Shown piece by piece: positions 35,285 to 59,165 of a stretch of DNA of 59,165 nt. The DNA is from Alphaproteobacteria bacterium (GTDB lineage Bacteria > Pseudomonadota > Alphaproteobacteria > JANQMY01). A program made the position numbers and the translations under genes. Location: assembly GCA_028279895.1 (NCBI GenBank), contig JANQMY010000498.1, positions 1 through 59,165 of the forward strand. Direction: 5' to 3'. Position 1 is the first letter of the stretch; every line of letters begins with the position of its first letter. The notes under the pieces were generated by a model. That model ran no database searches and was not told the DNA's origin. It saw only the letters and a program-made list of their open reading frames with translations.

Positions 35285-35585
35285 TACGAACTCACCTCAA
35301 AGAGTCAATTCTTGTGAGGCGTTTTGAGTGAGGGGCTTCTGTTGCCCGGCGCCCCTCAAGCCGCGCTTACCTAAAATTAGGCAGCGATTGCCATTTCGTT
35401 ATCGTTGGCAATTGTAAAGATGGTCCGATAACGGCGGTACCATGCCGGGCAAAAGATACACCTTTAGACGCTCGTCGATCCTATTTCGCCCCCAAAACAG
35501 CCAGCCATTGTGGTCAATTGTTTGGTGGAGGCGCCGGGTACCGCCCCCGGGTCCGATACGCTTATTACGTGCTCGTTTATCGCCA
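35285..35585 (-). ncRNA. ssrA: two-piece (circularly permuted) tmRNA, ssrA. Acceptor piece about 35523-35585, intervening segment 35494-35522, coding piece about 35285-35493. Outer ends are approximate.
   Basis: On the minus strand the acceptor piece ends ...CCGGG-GGCGGUA-CCCGG-CGCCUCC-ACCA at 35523. Thirty nt downstream the coding piece starts GGGGGCGAAAUAGGAUCGACG at 35493, and its 5' strand pairs with CGCCUCC including G3:U. The tag frame GCC AAC GAU AAC GAA AUG GCA AUC GCU GCC UAA (35409..35377) encodes ANDNEMAIAA. A terminal stem-loop lies at 35295-35319, and a TATAAT box at about 35589-35594 is upstream. Confidence 0.9.
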
Positions 35586-35715
35586 TAGCCGGTGAGACCG
35601 GCACCTTTATTATAGTGTTTCTAAGCGGTTAATTAAACCCTTCATCACAGCTACATACCTGTCTTGAAAGCTGCTATTTTGTTACCTCGATTCTTTTTGG
35701 TAAATACACCGTCCC

Positions 35716-53713: not shown

Positions 53714-54865
53714 ATGAGCGAACTCATTGGCGGCCGCGGGGGATTACGCACTCATCTCAATAAGGTGCTCGAGATCCATTGGGCTTTTGTTTTCCTCCTC
53801 TGCGTCATCGCTAGCGTCGGATTTGGCATGTTGATTTCGGTAGCCGAGGGGCATTTAGACCCCTGGGCGTCCCGTCAAATGATCCGGTTTGCGATCGGTT
53901 TGGTGATCCTGATTGCCGTTGCGGTGGTCGATATTCGCATTTGGATGGCGCTGGCTTATCCCGCCTATACCATCGCGCTATTGCTTTTAGTGGCGGTTGA
54001 GTTTTTTGGCACCGTCGGGATGGGCGCGCAAAGGTGGATAGATTTTGGCGTCTTCAGGCTTCAGCCGTCGGAGTTGATGAAGATCACGCTCGTCTTGGCG
54101 CTGGCGCGCTATTTCCACGGCATTACGTTAGAGCAAGTGTCACGGCCACTGTATCTGTTGGCGCCCCTGCTACTCATTTCCTTGCCGGTCATCTTGGTAT
54201 TGCGTCAGCCGGATCTTGGCACGTCGCTGCTTTTGGCAATCGGCGGCTTTTCGCTACTGTTCCTGGCCGGTATCAGTTGGAAGTGGCTTGTGGCAGCGGG
54301 GGCGGCAAGCTTGGCCGCCTTACCCATTGCCTGGCAGTTCGTCTTAGCACCATACCAAAAGGCCCTAATACTGACCTTTTTGGAGCCGGAAGCTGATATC
54401 CGGGGTGCTGGTTGGCATATTTTGCAGTCAAAGATTGCGCTGGGATCTGGCGGGGTGTTCGGTAAAGGGTGGCTGCAAGGTACGCAAAGCCATCTCGACT
54501 TTTTGCCCGAGAAACAGACGGACTTCATTTTTACGATGTTGGCGGAAGAGTTCGGGTTGGTGGGTGCTCTAACGCTTTTGGGCTTGTATCTGCTTGTCCT
54601 CGGATATGGCCTTGCGATCGCCATGCAGACCCGCAGCCAGTTTGGCCGTCTTGTCGTGATGGGCGTTTGTATTACGTTTTTGCTCTACATTCTGATCAAC
54701 ACGGCAATGGTCGTGGGCATGATTCCGGTCGTGGGGGTTCCTTTGCCACTGGTTTCATATGGCGGCACGGCTATGATGACACTTATGTTTGGCTTCGGTC
54801 TGCTTATGTGTGTCTACGTGCATCGGGATGTGGACGTGCCGCGCCATTCCAACTCACTCATCTGA
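53714..54865 (+). CDS. rodA: SEDS-family peptidoglycan polymerase RodA
   Basis: Polytopic protein with TDFIFTMLAEEFG and PLVSYGGT motifs. Confidence 0.95.
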   Translation: MSELIGGRGGLRTHLNKVLEIHWAFVFLLCVIASVGFGMLISVAEGHLDPWASRQMIRFAIGLVILIAVAVVDIRIWMALAYPAYTIALLLLVAVEFFGTVGMGAQRWIDFGVFRLQPSELMKITLVLALARYFHGITLEQVSRPLYLLAPLLLISLPVILVLRQPDLGTSLLLAIGGFSLLFLAGISWKWLVAAGAASLAALPIAWQFVLAPYQKALILTFLEPEADIRGAGWHILQSKIALGSGGVFGKGWLQGTQSHLDFLPEKQTDFIFTMLAEEFGLVGALTLLGLYLLVLGYGLAIAMQTRSQFGRLVVMGVCITFLLYILINTAMVVGMIPVVGVPLPLVSYGGTAMMTLMFGFGLLMCVYVHRDVDVPRHSNSLI

Positions 54866-54908
54866 TTGCAGCGGAAGCCCCAGGGGCCGACAGACATTTT
54901 GTCTTGCC

Positions 54909-55445
54909 ATGTTGGGAGTCATCCATAAGAGTGCGGCCATGGCGAGAAATCACGGAACCAAGGGATTTGAGTGGGATTTGCCCAATCCGTTTTCGATTCC
55001 AGTCGATGTGGAGGACGGAAACATCGACAATTACGGCCACGTCAATAATGCGGTCTATGTAGGGTGGTTAGACCGATGTGCTTGGCAGCACTCCGTACAC
55101 GTTGGTATCACGAAGGCGGACTGCGATCGGATCGGTCGTGGCATGGTGGTGCGCAAGACGCAAATTGAGTATCTGAGACCAGCCTTCAAGGGGCAGCGCG
55201 TCCAAGTGGGGAACTGGGTAACGTTTGCAGACGGCAGATTGCGCGCAAGCCGGCGCTTTCAAATTGTCCGACATGGAGACGGTGTAACCTTGTTGCGCGC
55301 GTTGTTGCACTATGTCTGCATTGATCTGGAAAGCGGCAGGCCTTCTCGCTGGCCGGAGGAGTTCAAGAAGAACTACGTCATCGATCCGGCCGTTGCTGCG
55401 ATTGTCTCAGGAGAGAGCTATAGGTTTCAACCTGGTGTCGACTAG
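54909..55445 (+). CDS. hotdog-fold acyl-CoA thioesterase (YbgC/4HBT-like)
   Basis: Contains VDVEDGNIDNYGHVNNAVYVGWLDRCAW, typical of 4HBT thioesterases. The start is ATG 54909 or 54939, and the track start at 54789 would overlap rodA. Confidence 0.8.
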   Translation: MLGVIHKSAAMARNHGTKGFEWDLPNPFSIPVDVEDGNIDNYGHVNNAVYVGWLDRCAWQHSVHVGITKADCDRIGRGMVVRKTQIEYLRPAFKGQRVQVGNWVTFADGRLRASRRFQIVRHGDGVTLLRALLHYVCIDLESGRPSRWPEEFKKNYVIDPAVAAIVSGESYRFQPGVD

Positions 55446-55964
55446 GGCGTGATCATTTTTCACGGAAACATGATCATGCCTGCGATTCACAGTTGGGCGC
55501 AAAGCGCGATGGAAGCATGAGACATGCTGCGCGGCAAGTTCTCCCCCGATTGCCACAAGCAATCCATCATAACGGGATCGGCAATAGGTGTAGTGCTGGG
55601 ACGCGCGCGCTTGCCGCTGTTGGTACAGAGAAAGCTTCAGCCTTCTGAGGATCGCTGCGGCAACGTCTGGTCGTGTGCTCGAAAGCCACTCCTCGGGGCA
55701 ATGAATGAGAGTGGGCAGTAGACGTCTGCGGTCATAGGATGACACTCGTTCTCGGATGATTTGGCGATCGCGCCGCCGGGCGGTTCGGCATGACGGGGCC
55801 GCGAAGTCCTTCTTTAAATCAACAGCCCTTCGCCTGAAACCCATGGAACGACGGGCGAAAAAGTGGAATCCGGTTTTTCGCGTTACCGGCGCGACCATCA
55901 AAGAGTCCGTAGCATCGGACGATTTGGATAAATCGCCCGATGCTGTAGTTGGCACTTGGTTCAT
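55407..55964 (-). CDS. hypothetical protein (185 aa), basic, no family confidently recognised
   Basis: ATG 55964 has an AAGGUG RBS 5 nt upstream, and codon usage resembles neighbouring genes. The 3' end overlaps the convergent thioesterase by 39 nt. It lies downstream of a structured leader. Confidence 0.55.
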   Translation of the reverse strand: MNQVPTTASGDLSKSSDATDSLMVAPVTRKTGFHFFARRSMGFRRRAVDLKKDFAAPSCRTARRRDRQIIRERVSSYDRRRLLPTLIHCPEEWLSSTRPDVAAAILRRLKLSLYQQRQARASQHYTYCRSRYDGLLVAIGGELAAQHVSCFHRALRPTVNRRHDHVSVKNDHALVDTRLKPIALS

Positions 55965-56009
55965 GATGTCACCTTTTTCCTCCCTCAAACTCGTTCGTAT
56001 TTGTTCTGG

Positions 56010-56061
56010 AAAAAAGTCCGGGGGCCAGGCGGCGAGGGAGGGGGAAACGCCCGACCCCCGG
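56010..56061 (-). terminator. strong intrinsic terminator/attenuator in the leader of the 55407..55964 gene
   Basis: On the minus-strand RNA, CCGGGGGUCGGGCG (56061..56048) pairs with CGCCUGGCCCCCGG (56031..56018). This gives 14 bp with two G.U pairs and the 16-nt C-rich loop UUUCCCCCUCCCUCGC, followed by AC and U6 (56015..56010). Confidence 0.75.
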
Positions 56062-56069
56062 GGGCAATT

Positions 56070-56098
56070 TCTCATCGACCGGGGGGAAATCGATGAGA
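56070..56098 (-). promoter_or_regulatory. leader hairpin with a possible antiterminator role
   Basis: Perfect 9-bp inverted repeat TCTCATCGA-N11-TCGATGAGA. On the minus strand its loop is UUUCCCCCCGG, whose C-run can pair with the G-run of the 5' arm of the downstream terminator. Confidence 0.5.
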
Positions 56099-56107
56099 TA
56101 AGTTAAA

Positions 56108-56149
56108 CTTATATTATTGGCTATGCCTATGTCAATTGGACAATCCAAT
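56108..56149 (-). promoter_or_regulatory. putative sigma70 promoter facing the 55407..55964 gene, with two operator-like palindromes
   Basis: On the minus strand, TTGACA (56135..56130), a 16-nt spacer, then TATAAG (56113..56108). The perfect palindrome ATTGG-ACAAT-CCAAT (56135-56149) abuts the -35. The imperfect copy ATTGG-CTATG-CCTAT (56116-56130) fills the spacer. Confidence 0.6.
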
Positions 56150-56167
56150 GAGTTCGATTGTTATGGT

Positions 56168-56794
56168 CTAATAGTGGCGAACGGCGTCGGTCACCCGTCC
56201 AACCACCTCTACCGATTCCTGCGGAAAGATGGTTTCGTGGGAAGGGTCTGTAGAGAAAGGCTCAAGCCGCGGGGGATTGCTACGCCATCTTTTTAAGGTC
56301 GCCTGCCCCTCTTGGCGGAACACGTAAAATTTGTTGTCGATCAATTCTTTATCGGTATAGTCCACAACAATTATCGTTCCTGGGGGAAACTCCCGGTTGC
56401 ATGACGTACCGCTGACTTTTAGGGCAATCAGCGTTGAAACGTCCGAGGCGATGGCGATAAAACGTTCCGCGTCGCCGGGCTGATATGGGTCTTCTATCGA
56501 CACAAATTGGCCTGCCTCTACCCAACTGATCAACGGAACGGCGCGAACCGGTTCCTTGATCGGACTGAGATCAGCCCCCCAATCAACACTATCGGTTTGA
56601 GAACCGAATTCAAGCCAAATCGGCGTCACTGATAAAACTTTAGCGAGTGGTCCGATTTTGGAACGCTCGGGCGCATAATCGCCGTTCTCCCATTGGGATA
56701 TGGTGGCCTGGGTTACGCCCAGCCGGGCGGCAAGATCCTTTTGAGACTGCCGCTTTTGTTGCCGTGCCTGGCGTATTCTTTCCCCGATCGACAT
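56168..56794 (-). CDS. CI/LexA-type repressor: XRE HTH fused to an S24 peptidase domain
   Basis: N-terminal HTH QKDLAARLGVTQATISQWENG. Linker with VPLISWVEAGQF, carrying an Ala-Gly site as in lambda CI VQAG. S24 core VSGTSCNREFPPGTIIVVD retains the Ser, and ATLKRW retains the Lys. Confidence 0.88.
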   Translation of the reverse strand: MSIGERIRQARQQKRQSQKDLAARLGVTQATISQWENGDYAPERSKIGPLAKVLSVTPIWLEFGSQTDSVDWGADLSPIKEPVRAVPLISWVEAGQFVSIEDPYQPGDAERFIAIASDVSTLIALKVSGTSCNREFPPGTIIVVDYTDKELIDNKFYVFRQEGQATLKRWRSNPPRLEPFSTDPSHETIFPQESVEVVGRVTDAVRHY

Positions 56795-56862
56795 GCCTCA
56801 CCCATGTTCCAAATTGGGACCGTTTACAATTTAGCCTAATGGCACTGCATAAGCTATGCTTA

Positions 56863-56906
56863 TTGAAATAAATTGGTAATACCAATATAAAATAGGTAAT
56901 TCTTAT
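56863..56906 (+). promoter_or_regulatory. near-consensus sigma70 promoter, divergent from the repressor gene, with operator palindromes
   Basis: TTGAAA (56863-56868), a 17-nt spacer, then TATAAA (56886-56891). The perfect palindrome ATTGG-TAATA-CCAAT (56872-56886) fills the spacer. The degenerate copy ATAGG-TAATT-CTTAT (56892-56906) is centred 20 bp downstream. Confidence 0.7.
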
Positions 56907-56955
56907 AGGCACTCGGTTTGTGAGGGAAAGCCGGCTTAAATTAGAGGAATTGACG

Positions 56956-57198
56956 GTGAGAAAACCCCGCAAAAAATTTGAACTTGTATCTTCCCCAGAC
57001 GGGGACGCAACGATTGAAGCGGTGGGCGCTTCGACGTTCCTCTCGTTGCGTCGGGCCGGCACCCAATATCGTGTGGAAACCCGGGCCGGCGACGATGAAA
57101 TTGTCCGCTGCTTTCCCGACTGGTGTTCGGCTGCTCTGGCGTTCGCCATGCTTTATCACACGGAGCAATGTCTCGACAGGTTGGGAGGGCATGTGTGA
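56956..57198 (+). CDS. hypothetical protein (80 aa)
   Basis: GTG 56956 has a GAGGA RBS 7 nt upstream. It is the first gene downstream of the operator-controlled promoter, and its stop overlaps the next start (GTGATG). Confidence 0.55.
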   Translation: MRKPRKKFELVSSPDGDATIEAVGASTFLSLRRAGTQYRVETRAGDDEIVRCFPDWCSAALAFAMLYHTEQCLDRLGGHV

Positions 57199-57779
57199 TG
57201 GCACGACGTGGACGTAAACGTCAACTTAATGCGAGACGGCGCAAGACCACGGTTCGCGGCCGCCGGCCTATCGATCACGGAACTGAATTTGCGGCGAAAC
57301 GCCGGCTGGAACTGGTGGGGCGCGCAGACCCGGCACTGAGCGAAAGCGCCTTGGGCATTCTTTATGCGCGCGGCTGGATCGATGAACCAAGATACAAGGC
57401 GGGCACATTGTTTGCCGCGTTCCGTCAGGCGGCTTATGGCAAGTCCTTTGCGCCGGTTGCCCATTACGGCGACTACGTGGATGATTATGTACGTCGGTCG
57501 GCGGAAGACCGGTTGTCAGACAACGAGCCTTATTTGGTGTCGATAACGCGGGCATATCTTCGGGGCGACCGTATTCTAAGACAGGCTACCGGCCCGATCC
57601 GCACAGCTACCTGGAACGTCTGTGTGCTGTCTATCATTCCAAGCTGGGCCTTGCGCCCTTCGAGTGAAGGAATGAGCGAAGCGGAGATGCAAAATCGTGG
57701 CGACATCGTGGCGGGCCTTGATCTGCTTACGGACGAGTACGGCACGGACAAGCAATCGCAAAAAAAAGTGAGCGGCTGA
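57198..57779 (+). CDS. hypothetical protein (193 aa) with an arginine-rich N-terminus
   Basis: ATG 57198 overlaps the upstream stop. The N-terminus MARRGRKRQLNARRRKTTVRGRR has 14 basic residues (R/K) in its 23 positions. The remainder is soluble and no family was recognised with confidence. Confidence 0.65.
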   Translation: MARRGRKRQLNARRRKTTVRGRRPIDHGTEFAAKRRLELVGRADPALSESALGILYARGWIDEPRYKAGTLFAAFRQAAYGKSFAPVAHYGDYVDDYVRRSAEDRLSDNEPYLVSITRAYLRGDRILRQATGPIRTATWNVCVLSIIPSWALRPSSEGMSEAEMQNRGDIVAGLDLLTDEYGTDKQSQKKVSG

Positions 57780-57851
57780 TCCAGTTTTCTATTTACGCTT
57801 TGGCTTGCGCGTGCTATACATGCGACGTAATTGAGACTTACGCAGTGTGTC

Positions 57852-57884
57852 AAAGGCGCAGCCCGAAACGGCGGCGCTTTTTTT
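57852..57884 (+). terminator. intrinsic terminator between the 193-aa gene and the next small gene
   Basis: AAAG-GCGCAGCC-CGAAAC-GGCGGCGC-TTTTTTT, an 8-bp GC stem with one mismatch, an A-tract upstream and T7 downstream. Confidence 0.85.
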
Positions 57885-57930
57885 GTGCGCGGCGTCGGCG
57901 CCCAAGTGGGGAGGCGAAAGGTGTAACTAC

Positions 57931-58245
57931 ATGTCCCGAAAATCTGCGCCGCGCGGCATGCCCGTGGCGGAAACCCCGCCAAAGCCGAAGAACCACAGGG
58001 GCCAGATCGACGTGGCCGGCTTGCTCAAGGCCTTGGAAGCCCACGTGCTGGAAGAGGCGGCGCTGTCCGCCACGCAAGTCAGTGCGGCCCTTGGTCTGCT
58101 GAAGAAGGCCTTGCCGGATCTGCAATCCACGACCGTTGAGGGCACGGCGCCCACGCGTGTTTTTGTGGTGTCGGATACGCCGGACCCGAAGTCTTCGGAG
58201 GATTGGGTGCGGGAATTCTCGCCCACCAGCCGAAGGCCGAACTGA
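57931..58245 (+). CDS. hypothetical protein (104 aa)
   Basis: ATG 57931 follows a GGAGGCGAAAGG RBS region. The helical segment SATQVSAALGLLKKALPDLQS faintly resembles phage small-terminase-like proteins from memory, which I have not verified. The track start at 57847 would read through the terminator. Confidence 0.55.
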   Translation: MSRKSAPRGMPVAETPPKPKNHRGQIDVAGLLKALEAHVLEEAALSATQVSAALGLLKKALPDLQSTTVEGTAPTRVFVVSDTPDPKSSEDWVREFSPTSRRPN

Positions 58246-58286
58246 CGGCGATTTTAAACCGTTTAGAACATTCACTGCCAATTGAG

Positions 58287-58310
58287 GCCCCGCCATCGGC
58301 GGGGCTTTTT
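58287..58310 (+). terminator. intrinsic terminator after the 104-aa gene
   Basis: GCCCCGCC-ATC-GGCGGGGC followed by TTTTT. Confidence 0.85.
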
Positions 58311-58342
58311 CGTGTCGGGGGTCAATTCAAGGAAACCACCTT

Positions 58343-59165
58343 ATGCCCCCAAAACGTTCGCGCCACCACGCGTCGCAACCCCACACCGGTCCCGACGAAG
58401 ACGAGATCACCAATCTAGATCTCTGGAACAGTATGAACGACGTCGGGAAGGCGAAGACGGTTCGCGGCCTGTTGGACGAAGGCGCCCTCTCCAAAAACGA
58501 TATTACGGGCCTGATCAACGATGCGCCGATGATCATGGAAATGGCGTTGGCGGATAGTAAAGTTGAGGATCCGCTTGTGCGCATGGGCAATTTCGCGCGC
58601 GAGCTTATGGGAGACCAGCCACCGATTGTCGAACAAGAACCTCAGTCCGGTTTCGATCCAGGGCCGGGCATCTGCGGTTGGACCGAGGAGGATTGGGCCC
58701 GCATCCGCCGGGGTGAAGCCCCGCCGCCGGGCAGGTTTCAAAATGCGAGTGATCCGTCGCAGGCGGGGGAAGGCATCCTCCGTGTACCGCCGCAACAGGT
58801 ACAACGGGCCGGCCAAGAAAAACGGCGTGCTTTGCCGGCTGCGTTGCCGGCTGGCGCTCCACCGTCCGGAAGGGTGCGCGTGCCCCAGGCCCCGCACGAA
58901 CCTTTCGCGATCCTAAAATCGTTTCTGGCAGATGTGGGACTGCCCGGTATTCCGCCGAACGCGCCGCAATCAGCGGCGCCGTTTTCTTTCAGACCGACCA
59001 CCTTCCTCCAAGGCGTTAGCGATGGCCAGCAGATGCAGAGTGCGGGGCGATTGGCGTCAGTGACCGAGAATGGCGCGCAGCAAAACGGTGAACCGAGCGG
59101 ACAACAGCTGGCTGCCAATGAAAGGACTCCGGTGCATGGAGGTGGAGGAACCGGTGCCGGTGGGT
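58343..59165 (+). CDS. hypothetical proline-rich protein, 3' end beyond the window (at least 274 codons); absent from the supplied ORF track
   Basis: My own translation from ATG 58343 (RBS AAGGAAA 8 nt upstream) gives MPPKRSRHHASQPHTGPDEDEITNLDLWNSMNDVGKAKTVRGLLDEGALSKNDITGLINDAPMIMEMALADSKVEDPLVRMGNFARELMGDQPP... with no stop codon up to nt 59165. Codon usage is gene-like. The competing minus-strand ORFs are Arg-rich and look like antisense artefacts. Confidence 0.7.
   Translation, partial: MPPKRSRHHASQPHTGPDEDEITNLDLWNSMNDVGKAKTVRGLLDEGALSKNDITGLINDAPMIMEMALADSKVEDPLVRMGNFARELMGDQPPIVEQEPQSGFDPGPGICGWTEEDWARIRRGEAPPPGRFQNASDPSQAGEGILRVPPQQVQRAGQEKRRALPAALPAGAPPSGRVRVPQAPHEPFAILKSFLADVGLPGIPPNAPQSAAPFSFRPTTFLQGVSDGQQMQSAGRLASVTENGAQQNGEPSGQQLAANERTPVHGGGGTGAGG

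What the first reader, a model, noticed from the sequence alone, without database searches (positions are those of the whole stretch)
55446..59165. Accessory module: an SOS-cleavable CI-type repressor gating unknown cargo through operators and terminators (best candidate for an undescribed system)
After the rod-shape operon the gene content changes completely. A CI/LexA-type repressor (HTH plus S24 domain, with the Ala-Gly site and Ser/Lys retained) is flanked by two outward promoters that share an operator motif. One controls a 185-aa unknown protein behind a complex leader. The other controls two translationally coupled unknown genes (80 aa, and 193 aa with an Arg-rich N-terminus). Next comes a terminator, a 104-aa gene and a second terminator. 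A proline-rich ORF of more than 274 aa then runs off the window. I can confidently place none of the five cargo proteins in a known family. No integrase, capsid, portal or large terminase is visible in this portion. The layout resembles a phage immunity region, but the downstream genes do not look like a standard early operon.
Basis: partly seen in the sequence, partly recalled or inferred. Interest (0 to 1): 0.7.

Follow-up and report, generated by a model that had tools for sequence, protein, structure and literature searches.

The report
Prophage lysogeny switch and late-operon start
The flagged stretch is the control region of a dormant virus (a prophage) in an uncultured alphaproteobacterium: a lambda-style repressor switch, then the start of the virus's DNA-packaging operon, so it is a well-built but ordinary kind of element made mostly of uncharacterised phage proteins.

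Summary
A 208-aa CI-type repressor (HTH plus S24, with Ala94-Gly95, Ser131 and Lys168 retained) lies between two regulatory regions. Each region carries three copies of one 15-bp palindrome, ATWRG-N5-CYWAT. These are the only six copies in the 59-kb window. A leftward promoter (PL) leads to a 185-aa ORF behind two conserved hairpins. A rightward promoter (PR) drives the coupled genes p92 and p193. A conserved promoter-like element (P'), a palindrome and terminator T1 follow, then p104, terminator T2 and a Pro-rich ORF.

The "undescribed accessory system" reading does not hold. The same module sits after rodA-thioesterase in four related genomes. Two of them continue into a large terminase gene. 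Two are deletion remnants that keep only the switch. p104 homologues sit directly upstream of that terminase family in 18 viral contigs, which is the small-terminase position. p193 belongs to a large uncharacterised family found in phages and prophages.

Best explanation: this is a lambdoid-logic lysogeny switch plus the start of the late operon. p193 is the candidate late-gene antiterminator or activator, acting at P'-T1-p104-T2; this is inferred. The Pro-rich ORF looks like variable accessory cargo between the terminase genes. I rate it a new member of a known kind.

The parts
55407..55964 (-). p185: the only gene of the leftward (PL) operon. It has a conserved ~85-aa core (residues ~61-143) and variable ends. 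Its 3' end overlaps the convergent host thioesterase gene. Function unknown.
   Evidence: ORF and translation. The core is 58-68% identical in L003-L006. No Pfam, PHROG, NCBIfam or PADLOC match. The single-sequence AF2 model is unusable, pLDDT 34.
56018..56097 (-). Structured leader just downstream of PL, with two hairpins (56071-56097 and 56018-56061) that have C-rich loops. It is more conserved than the flanking coding DNA. A T-run follows hairpin 2 only in the window (56010-56015).
   Evidence: Alignment A3. RNAalifold gives 23 pairs, 3 of them with compensatory changes. MFE is -38.9 kcal/mol, z = -2.9. No Rfam family matches.
56098..56149 (.). OL: three operator palindromes (56098-56112, 56116-56130, 56135-56149) interleaved with leftward promoter PL (-35 TTGACA at 56130-56135, 16-nt spacer, -10 TATAAG at 56108-56113, read on the minus strand).
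   Evidence: Motif search, repeats, conservation in four relatives. The hexamers were read from the sequence.
56168..56794 (-). CI-type repressor, 208 aa: HTH plus S24 autopeptidase domain with Ala94-Gly95, Ser131 and Lys168.
   Evidence: Pfam and PHROG matches. Alignment to lambda CI 3bdn and P22 C2. 83-89% identical in relatives, dN 0.04-0.11, dN/dS 0.03-0.07.
56849..56906 (.). OR: three operator palindromes (56849-56863, 56872-56886, 56892-56906) interleaved with rightward promoter PR (-35 TTGAAA at 56863-56868, 17-nt spacer, -10 TATAAA at 56886-56891).
   Evidence: Motif search. Conservation in relatives, alignment A2. The hexamers were read from the sequence.
56920..57198 (+). p92 (80 aa if started at GTG 56956): first gene of the PR operon, in the cro position. 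It evolves fast, and only the C-terminal helix motif AALAFAMLYHTE is conserved.
   Evidence: ORF. 36-46% identical in relatives, dN/dS about 0.3-0.4. No family match. It is not found next to p193 relatives in other contexts.
57198..57779 (+). p193: translationally coupled to p92. Arg-rich N-terminus followed by two all-alpha domains. Member of a large uncharacterised phage-associated family. Candidate late-gene regulator or antiterminator (inferred).
   Evidence: Translation. Family size of 417 representatives. AF2 pLDDT 84.6. No PDB analogue. BFVD Caudovirales matches, one of them annotated DUF6456. dN/dS 0.07-0.09.
57792..57884 (+). Late control region. P' is TTTACG (57792-57797), a 17-nt spacer, then TGcTATACA (-10 at 57815-57820). 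The palindrome CGTAATTGAGACTTACG is at 57826-57842. Terminator T1 is a stem at 57856-57877 plus T7 at 57878-57884.
   Evidence: Alignment A9, conserved in all four relatives. The pattern is unique in the window and occurs once in each related locus. Fold results.
57931..58245 (+). p104: probable small terminase subunit (assigned by position), and first gene after P'/T1.
   Evidence: Homologues at 30-35% identity lie directly upstream of TerL in 18 viral contigs. 71-76% identical in L004 and L006, truncated in L003 and L005. No Pfam, PHROG or PDB sequence match.
58287..58310 (+). Terminator T2: 8-bp GC stem, 3-nt loop, T5.
   Evidence: Fold at about -21 kcal/mol, z = -3.3, 0 of 200 shuffles as stable. 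Kept with different stem sequences in L006 and L012.
58343..59165 (+). Pro-rich ORF, truncated by the window end. It has a conserved ~110-aa N-terminal region, then Pro-rich and Gly-rich linkers. In relatives the C-terminal domain differs. It is variable cargo between the terS-like gene and terL.
   Evidence: Translation. The only close homologue, P0164 (45% identity), ends in an HNH nuclease motif and is followed by a DUF4265 gene. The L006 555-aa protein shares the N-terminal part only.

Best explanation
This is the left arm of a temperate prophage, or prophage-derived element, inserted between a host thioesterase gene and, in relatives, a flavin reductase gene. It works with lambda-like logic.

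Shown from sequence and comparison:
- A CI-type repressor gene sits between two tripartite operator clusters, OL and OR, that overlap sigma-70-like promoters.
- PL points to p185 through a conserved two-hairpin leader.
- PR points to the coupled genes p92 and p193.
- Immediately after p193 come a conserved promoter-like element (P'), a palindrome and terminator T1. Then follow p104 (a small-terminase-position gene), terminator T2 and variable cargo.
- In relatives, the large terminase and further phage genes follow.

Inferred:
- In the lysogen the repressor occupies the six operators and shuts off PL and PR.
- DNA damage triggers RecA-stimulated self-cleavage at Ala94-Gly95, which derepresses both promoters.
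- p92 acts in the cro position.
- p193 accumulates and lets RNA polymerase starting at P' read through T1 and T2 into the packaging and late genes. This could be Q/GafZ-like loading at the promoter, N-like binding of its Arg-rich N-terminus to the hairpin RNA, or simple activation.
- The Pro-rich ORF is accessory cargo (a moron) in a variable slot between terS and terL, possibly a nuclease or toxin-type protein.
For: Repressor identity and catalytic residues.

Operators: all six copies of the motif in 59 kb fall in the two regulatory regions. They are conserved in four related loci.

Same site and order in relatives: rodA, thioesterase, p185, repressor, p92, p193, p104 in L003-L006.

Large terminase downstream in L004 and L006: Terminase_6N and phrog_979. 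L004 and L006 TerL are 92% identical. The family has 152 relatives in IMG/VR, several on contigs of about 41-42 kb.

p104-like genes lie directly upstream of TerL in 18 viral contigs.

p193 family: members occur in a prophage next to an integrase and GpA terminase (L010), in a phage early/replication module (L011), after a phage endolysin (L007), and on a TerL-family viral contig (L110). Best fold matches are Caudovirales proteins.

P', the palindrome and T1 are conserved in every locus and occur only there. T2 is a strong hairpin conserved as a structure.

Mobility and decay: L003 and L005 are deletion remnants. In L003 the p104 N-terminus is fused to the right-end 70-aa ORF. Four-fold-site identity of TerL between L004 and L006 is 0.55, against about 0.3 for host genes, which suggests more recent exchange of the phage part.
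Against: - The window ends 823 nt into the Pro-rich ORF, so no structural gene of this copy is seen. It could itself be a remnant.
- No integrase or att repeats were found at the visible ends.
- p92 has no detectable HTH, so 'cro-like' rests on position only.
- p193 has no similarity to Q, N or any PDB structure. The palindrome shows no covariation. Its role is therefore inferred from position and composition only.
- Two remnants that lack late genes still keep an intact, selected p193 and P'-T1. A purely local late-gene regulator does not explain this.
- p104 matches no terminase model.
- The T1 hairpin is not more stable than shuffled sequence.
Confidence: 0.78

Rival explanations
1. A domesticated regulatory cassette. 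The repressor-p92-p193 switch has been kept by the host lineage, as RogA-GafYZ controls gene transfer agents in Caulobacter. It would control loci beyond the adjacent genes, and the neighbouring phage genes would be decaying or variable remains.
For: - The module is at the same site in all five loci of the clade.
- Host synonymous sites are saturated. Repressor dN is 0.04-0.11, comparable to rodA (0.06-0.08) and PBP2 (0.08-0.11). Four-fold-site identity of the repressor and p193 is near saturation.
- Remnants L003 and L005 keep p185, the repressor, p92, p193, P' and T1 intact. p193 dN/dS between these two remnants is 0.07.
- Published precedent: a LexA-like repressor (RogA) controls gafYZ, and GafZ reads through a terminator after the first GTA gene (PMC9632790, PMC11150451).
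- Faint link of the p193 family to DUF6456, the annotation of GafA (PMC9638019): BFVD hit 4, and one of 87 scanned family members at E = 0.0024.
Against: - RogA lacks the catalytic residues (PMC9632790). This repressor keeps them.
- p193 itself gives no DUF6456 hit even at E up to 1, and none of 67 other family members does.
- p92 is not a conserved partner of p193 relatives.
- TerL, p104 and their neighbours show younger synonymous divergence than host genes, as expected for a mobile phage.
- The module is absent from all 80 more distant rodA loci.
- The timing of the deletions is unknown, so purifying selection may simply predate them.
Confidence: 0.12
2. An SOS-gated bacteriocin-type locus, analogous to PrtR/PrtN-pyocin or colicin control. 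The repressor would gate production of the Pro/Gly-rich protein, a released nuclease toxin with a swappable C-terminal domain and a cognate immunity gene. Phage genes would provide only release.
For: - The three members of the Pro-rich family share the N-terminal ~110 aa and a GILRVPPQQ motif but have different C-termini.
- P0164 ends in an HNH nuclease motif: Pfam HNH E = 0.003, McrA E = 0.006, weaker to colicin E2 and pyocin S2. A DUF4265 gene follows it.
- L004 carries a DUF4275 gene in the same slot.
- Long disordered Pro/Gly-rich linkers resemble bacteriocin translocation regions. This last point is from my own knowledge and was not tested.
Against: - The C-terminus of the window's copy is not visible.
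- No secretion or toxin-family domain was detected.
- Immunity roles for DUF4265 and DUF4275 are my inference; no paper supporting them was found.
- The L006 555-aa version has no separate immunity-like gene before the conserved 72-aa zinc-ribbon gene.
- HNH nucleases next to terminase genes can instead serve DNA packaging (own knowledge).
- The terminase genes are intact and conserved.
Confidence: 0.07
3. A novel anti-phage defence or abortive-infection system gated by the repressor.
For: - Cargo proteins have no family assignment.
- A relative carries a SoFic-like Fic gene in the variable slot, PADLOC SoFic 1.5e-23.
- One p193 relative sits next to a reverse transcriptase gene.
Against: - No PADLOC model hits any window cargo protein.
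- p104 and p193 have phage homologues in packaging and early-gene contexts.
- The conserved part is a complete switch plus late promoter, not an effector.
Confidence: 0.03

Closest known systems
Lambdoid immunity region (cI with OL/PL and OR/PR/PRM, cro, N/Q antitermination, PR'-tR')
   Same: - An HTH+S24 repressor with cleavage site and Ser/Lys dyad.
- Three operators on each side of the repressor gene, overlapping -35/-10 elements.
- A leftward operon downstream of the repressor gene and a rightward operon starting with a small fast-evolving gene.
- A regulator-position gene lying directly upstream of a promoter followed by a terminator that precedes the late genes.
   Different: - The operators are 15-bp 5-N5-5 palindromes of a different sequence.
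- p92 has no recognisable HTH.
- p193 shares no sequence or fold with N or Q.
- No replication genes lie between the switch and the late promoter.
- The late operon starts with a terS-like gene bracketed by two terminators.
- The left operon has one gene, and no integrase is seen.
RogA-GafYZ control of the Caulobacter gene transfer agent (PMC9632790, PMC11150451) and GafA of RcGTA (PMC9638019)
   Same: - Host group is Alphaproteobacteria.
- A LexA/CI-like repressor controls a two-gene regulator operon.
- The target cluster has a terminator after its first (terminase) gene, which the regulator reads through.
- There is a weak structural and profile hint linking the p193 family to DUF6456.
   Different: - RogA lacks catalytic residues and is unlinked to gafYZ. 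Here the residues are kept and the genes are adjacent.
- p193 does not match DUF6456.
- p92 shows no DnaA-domain-IV match.
- The element behaves like a mobile prophage with decay remnants, not a fixed GTA.
PrtR/PrtN control of pyocins and SOS-controlled colicin operons
   Same: A CI-like cleavable repressor upstream of a small positive regulator. Downstream, a Gly/Pro-rich protein whose homologue carries an HNH nuclease end followed by a small gene.
   Different: - No PrtN (Pfam PyocinActivator) match for p104 or p193.
- Terminase genes are present in relatives.
- Toxin and immunity roles are unproven.
Accessory-gene hotspots in temperate phage genomes (morons and defence islands between conserved phage genes)
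   Same: The slot between the terS-like gene and terL differs in every relative:
- the Pro-rich ORF in the window;
- a 555-aa protein plus a SoFic-like Fic gene in L006;
- DUF4275 in L004;
- HNH + DUF4265 + Tpt1/KptA in L012.

The slot is preceded by its own terminator, T2.
   Different: Splitting the two terminase genes with cargo is unusual. In 18 related viral contigs the two genes are adjacent.

Membership tests
CI/LexA-type S24 autocleavable repressors | N-terminal HTH DNA-binding domain | tested here: met
   Pfam HTH_3 at 7.8e-14. Aligns to the P22 C2 and 434 repressor DNA-binding domains.
CI/LexA-type S24 autocleavable repressors | C-terminal S24 peptidase domain with an Ala-Gly cleavage site and Ser/Lys dyad | tested here: met
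   Peptidase_S24 at 5.5e-13. In the alignment to lambda CI 3bdn, AG, Ser and Lys align with lambda A111-G112, S149 and K192. The positions are A94-G95, S131 and K168.
CI/LexA-type S24 autocleavable repressors | RecA-stimulated self-cleavage on DNA damage | not testable with these tools
   Needs biochemistry or mitomycin C induction.
Lambdoid immunity region | Multiple repressor operators overlapping divergent early promoters on both sides of the repressor gene | tested here: met
   3 + 3 palindromes, which are the only six in the window. They are conserved in relatives. The promoter hexamers were read by eye; the consensus scan did not list them.
Lambdoid immunity region | Cro-type HTH antagonist as first gene of the rightward operon | tested here: inconclusive
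   p92 is in the right position, but no HTH or Cro family match was found.
Q-type antiterminators | Gene directly upstream of a late promoter that is followed by a terminator | tested here: met
   p193 stop, P' (57792-57820), T1 (57856-57884). This arrangement is conserved in all relatives.
Q-type antiterminators | Sequence or fold similarity to Q-lambda, Q21 or Q82 | tested here: not met
   No Pfam or PDB sequence hit. No Foldseek PDB match with E below 1.
N-type antiterminators | Arg-rich RNA-binding motif plus a boxB-like hairpin in the transcript | tested here: inconclusive
   The N-terminus is MARRGRKRQLNARRRKTTVRGRRP. The 7-3-7 palindrome after P' is conserved, but no compensatory changes are seen.
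GafA/GafZ (DUF6456) GTA activators | Match to Pfam DUF6456 | tested here: not met
   p193 gives no hit at E up to 1. 0 of 67 and 1 of 87 family members hit, the best at E = 0.0024. Only a structural hint exists: BFVD hit 4 is annotated DUF6456, TM 0.47.
RogA-type GTA repressors | LexA-like fold that lacks the catalytic residues (PMC9632790) | tested here: not met
   The catalytic Ser and Lys and the AG site are retained.
Phage small terminase (TerS) | Gene immediately upstream of terL in related phages | tested here: met
   p104 homologues end 14-450 nt before TerL, or overlap its start, in 18 viral contigs.
Phage small terminase (TerS) | Match to a TerS family model or structure | tested here: not met
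   No Pfam, PHROG or NCBIfam hit. No PDB sequence hit, alone or as a profile. No structure could be modelled with the alignment.
Polymorphic toxin / bacteriocin | Conserved N-terminal part with interchangeable C-terminal toxin domain plus adjacent immunity gene | tested here: inconclusive
   The variable C-termini rest on only three members. There is an HNH motif in P0164 and a DUF4265 gene downstream. The window copy's C-terminus is off the contig, and no immunity function is documented.
Known anti-phage defence systems (PADLOC) | Match of any cargo protein to a defence model | tested here: not met
   No hits for p185, p92, p193, p104 or the Pro-rich ORF. The repressor hits only generic HTH models.

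The most novel reading that the evidence does not exclude
p193 founds a new class of phage late-gene processive antiterminators. It would have a new all-alpha fold and an Arg-rich N-terminus, would possibly be a very distant relative of the GafA/GafZ (DUF6456) regulators of gene transfer agents, and would act at the conserved P'-palindrome-T1-terS-T2 region. Because the switch and p193 are retained intact in deletion remnants, the host lineage may also have co-opted them.
Probability: 0.25. Interest if true: 0.6.

Novelty: new member of a known kind. Interest (0 to 1): 0.3.

Why it matters
As a prophage lysogeny switch it is ordinary, and that should lower its priority as an "undescribed system". 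Three things still have value.

1. It gives a cleanly defined, testable switch for phages of an uncultured alphaproteobacterial clade: a six-operator code, PL, PR, P' and two terminators.
2. It gives a first functional hypothesis for a sizeable uncharacterised phage protein family (at least 417 clusters at 50% identity). The hypothesis is late-gene antitermination or activation. A possible distant tie to the GafA/GafZ regulators of gene transfer agents would bear on how GTA control evolved from phage control.
3. It points to a variable cargo slot between the two terminase genes. In different relatives this slot carries nuclease-like, Fic/SoFic-like and other accessory genes.

Tried and rejected
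**Extending the window.** Exact-protein look-ups for p193 and p104 found nothing. The repressor is found only on two Logan contigs of about 1.3 kb. One look-up used wrong minus-strand coordinates.

**Sequence searches for p193.** A word-index homology search gave only eight proteins. Repeating it with a profile added little. tblastn against GenBank phages and PLSDB plasmids gave no match. A single-protein IMG/VR scan found nothing. Alignments A5 and A6 were too diverse for pattern scans.

**Family libraries.** Pfam, PHROGs, NCBIfam and PADLOC gave nothing for the five cargo proteins.

**PDB sequence searches.** Searches for the p193 profile, the L006 555-aa protein, p104 and the p104 profile gave nothing meaningful.

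**Structures.** The p185 single-sequence model has pLDDT 34, so it was not used for a fold search.

**att sites.** No convincing flanking direct repeats were found in L003, L004 or L005.

**Empty-site search.** The rodA-based metagenome scan returned only relatives at 63% identity or less. These lack even the thioesterase, so no empty site is available.

**GafY/GafZ sequences.** The supplementary alignment is held only as an image, so no direct comparison was possible.

**p92 as a GafY-like partner of p193.** Rejected: the ORFs upstream of p193 relatives elsewhere are unrelated to p92.

**Rfam.** No family matches the conserved leader.

**Literature on DUF4265/DUF4275.** Nothing relevant was found.

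Full report
**1. What is in the sequence**

| Feature | Coordinates | Strand |
|---|---|---|
| p185 | 55407-55964 | - |
| Repressor, 208 aa | 56168-56794 | - |
| p92 (80 aa from GTG 56956, behind a GAGGA Shine-Dalgarno) | 56920-57198 | + |
| p193 | 57198-57779 | + |
| p104 | 57931-58245 | + |
| Pro-rich ORF, leaves the window after 274 codons | 58343-59165 | + |

The p193 ATG shares one base with the p92 stop codon.

The repressor matches Pfam HTH_3 and Peptidase_S24 and phrog_4 'transcriptional repressor'. Aligned to lambda CI (PDB 3bdn), its VEAGQF, GTS and LKR segments fall on lambda's cleavage site and Ser/Lys dyad. That gives Ala94-Gly95, Ser131 and Lys168.

None of the other five proteins matches Pfam, PHROGs, NCBIfam or PADLOC.

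**2. Regulatory DNA**

The 15-bp palindrome ATWRG-N5-CYWAT occurs six times in the whole 59-kb window. Three copies lie between the repressor stop codon and p185 (starting at 56098, 56116 and 56135). Three lie between the repressor start codon and p92 (56849, 56872 and 56892). Chance expectation is 0.42, and no shuffle reaches six. I derived the motif from these sites, so the clustering and its conservation matter more than the count. The sites are conserved in four related loci.

Read by eye, the copies interleave with promoter hexamers.

- PL (minus strand): TTGACA at 56130-56135, a 16-nt spacer, TATAAG at 56108-56113.
- PR (plus strand): TTGAAA at 56863-56868, a 17-nt spacer, TATAAA at 56886-56891.

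This is the tripartite OL/OR arrangement of lambdoid phages.

Downstream of PL lie two hairpins, at 56071-56097 and 56018-56061. They are better conserved than the neighbouring coding DNA. Three of their base pairs are kept through double changes. No Rfam family matches them. A T-run follows hairpin 2 only in the window, so they are not a conserved intrinsic terminator.

Between p193 and p104 every relative keeps three elements:

- a promoter-like element P' (TTTACG, 17 nt, TGnTATAcA; 57792-57820);
- a 7-3-7 palindrome (57826-57842);
- terminator T1 (57856-57884).

This pattern occurs once per locus and nowhere else.

T2 (58287-58310) is a strong hairpin, z = -3.3. It is preserved with different stem sequences in L006 and L012.

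**3. Relatives**

A genome scan and exact-protein look-ups gave four loci with the same order: mreBCD, PBP2, rodA, thioesterase, p185, repressor, p92, p193, p104. They differ in what follows.

- **L006** continues with a 555-aa relative of the Pro-rich ORF, small ORFs, a Fic gene, a 467-aa large terminase and more ORFs. It lies on a 38.6-kb contig.
- **L004** has about 7 kb that includes the same terminase (Terminase_6N; phrog_979 at 6e-36), then a host gene.
- **L003 and L005** are remnants. p104 is truncated. In L003 it is fused to a 70-aa ORF that in L005 lies at the right end, next to a flavin reductase gene.

The terminase has 152 relatives in IMG/VR at 36-57% identity, several on contigs of about 41-42 kb. 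In 18 of those contigs a p104 homologue (30-35% identity) sits directly upstream of terL, or overlaps its start. That is the small-terminase position.

So the second terminator-bracketed gene is most likely terS. The variable DNA between it and terL is a cargo slot.

**4. Age and selection**

Synonymous sites of host genes are saturated between these genomes: four-fold-site identity is about 0.3.

- The repressor evolves about as slowly as rodA and PBP2 (dN 0.04-0.11; dN/dS 0.03-0.07).
- p193 has dN/dS 0.07-0.09, and p104 0.07-0.16.
- p92 has dN/dS about 0.3-0.4.
- p185 is conserved only in its core.
- TerL between L004 and L006 is 92% identical, with four-fold-site identity 0.55. It is therefore younger than the host divergence, which points to phage exchange rather than strict vertical descent.

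More distant rodA loci (63% identity or less; 80 loci) lack the module, and even the thioesterase. No empty site is available for comparison.

**5. p193**

A profile search of 1.84 billion representatives finds 417 proteins at E of 0.001 or better, and 74 at 1e-10 or better. Most are 170-200 aa. None of 154 scanned members belongs to a Pfam or PHROG family above threshold.

Contexts of family members:

- at the end of a prophage, beside an integrase and ahead of a GpA-type terminase (L010);
- in the early/replication module of a phage contig (L011);
- after a GH108 endolysin (L007);
- next to a reverse transcriptase gene (L009);
- on a viral contig that also carries the p104-like gene and terL (L110).

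The AlphaFold model is confident (pLDDT 84.6). It shows two all-alpha domains joined by a flexible linker, behind a disordered Arg-rich N-terminus. Foldseek finds nothing in the PDB. In BFVD it finds uncharacterised Caudovirales proteins at probability 1.0, one of them annotated DUF6456. Weaker matches are to sigma-70 region 4 and ECF sigma proteins.

DUF6456 is the annotation of GafA, the activator of the Rhodobacter gene transfer agent (PMC9638019). Its Caulobacter counterpart GafZ reads through a terminator after the first GTA gene, and gafYZ is controlled by a LexA-like repressor, RogA (PMC9632790, PMC11150451). The logic is strikingly parallel, but membership is not shown:

- p193 gives no DUF6456 hit;
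- only 1 of 154 members gives a weak one;
- RogA lacks the catalytic residues that this repressor retains;
- p92 is not a conserved partner of p193 relatives.

**6. The Pro-rich ORF**

Its only close homologue is P0164 (45% identity, 378 aa). P0164 shares the N-terminal ~110 aa, the GILRVPPQQ motif and the Gly-rich tract. It ends in an HNH nuclease motif and is followed by a DUF4265 gene. The L006 555-aa protein shares only the N-terminal part.

This looks like a protein with a swappable C-terminal domain, perhaps a toxin or nuclease. The window copy is truncated and no immunity function is documented. I give this low confidence.

**7. Verdict**

The cargo is not an undescribed non-phage system: it is the early regulators and the start of the late (packaging) operon of a prophage lineage whose proteins are mostly uncharacterised.

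The mechanism I favour is as follows.

1. The repressor occupies the six operators.
2. SOS-induced self-cleavage releases PL and PR.
3. p193 then permits transcription from P' through T1 and T2 into terS, the cargo slot and terL.

Step 1 is inferred from the anatomy. Steps 2 and 3 are inferred from family knowledge and from position.

The main rival is a host-retained (domesticated) switch. It explains why the remnants keep the whole cassette, but the evidence for phage mobility counts against it.

Novelty: a new member of a known kind. The p193 antiterminator hypothesis is the most novel reading that survives.

Noticed in passing
window 56018-56097 (-) and 55965-55995 (-): The loop of the second conserved leader hairpin contains CCUCCCUC. 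This is exactly complementary to the GAGGGAGG just upstream of the p185 start codon. The first hairpin loop is also C-rich (UUUCCCCCCGG). This could sequester the ribosome-binding site or bind a G-rich partner. The loops are conserved in relatives, but I did not check their ribosome-binding sites.
   Followed up: partly
L006 3962-8703; L004 11196-12798; L012 313-2749: The slot between the terS-like gene and terL holds different cargo in each relative. L006 has a 555-aa protein plus a Fic protein that matches the PADLOC SoFic model (1.5e-23). L004 has a DUF4275 protein. L012 has an HNH-ended protein, a DUF4265 protein, a zinc-ribbon ORF and a Tpt1/KptA RNA 2'-phosphotransferase. In 18 related viral contigs the two terminase genes are adjacent.
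   Followed up: partly
L009 395-3606: A p193-family gene (188 aa) lies beside a convergent reverse transcriptase gene (RVT_1, 538 aa) and a 242-aa ORF. This may be a retron or DRT-type defence pair carried on a phage-like element.
   Followed up: no
window 54789-55445 (+) versus 55407-55964 (-): The host thioesterase gene next to the element is far less conserved than rodA (57-77% against 90-93% identity; dN about 0.2). Its 3' end overlaps the convergent p185 ORF by 39 nt. The insertion junction may lie within or right after this gene. No att repeats were found.
   Followed up: partly
L003 10697-11074; L005 10729-11982: Both remnants break p104 at almost the same codon, after LSAT(Q/H). L003 fuses it in frame to the 70-aa right-end ORF. 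The shared breakpoint could mark a recombination-prone site, or nested deletions.
   Followed up: no
window 35286-35615 (-): A permuted (two-piece, alphaproteobacterial type) tmRNA gene with tag peptide ANDNEMAIAA. It is the only tRNA-like gene in the window and lies far from the prophage junction.
   Followed up: no
L001, L002, L009 (Logan runs SRR20820732, SRR20820734, SRR20820735): A repressor identical to the window's occurs on short contigs from two sequencing runs with neighbouring accession numbers. A p193-family member (39% identity in alignment A6) comes from a third run with an adjacent accession number. The source community may hold several related elements.
   Followed up: no
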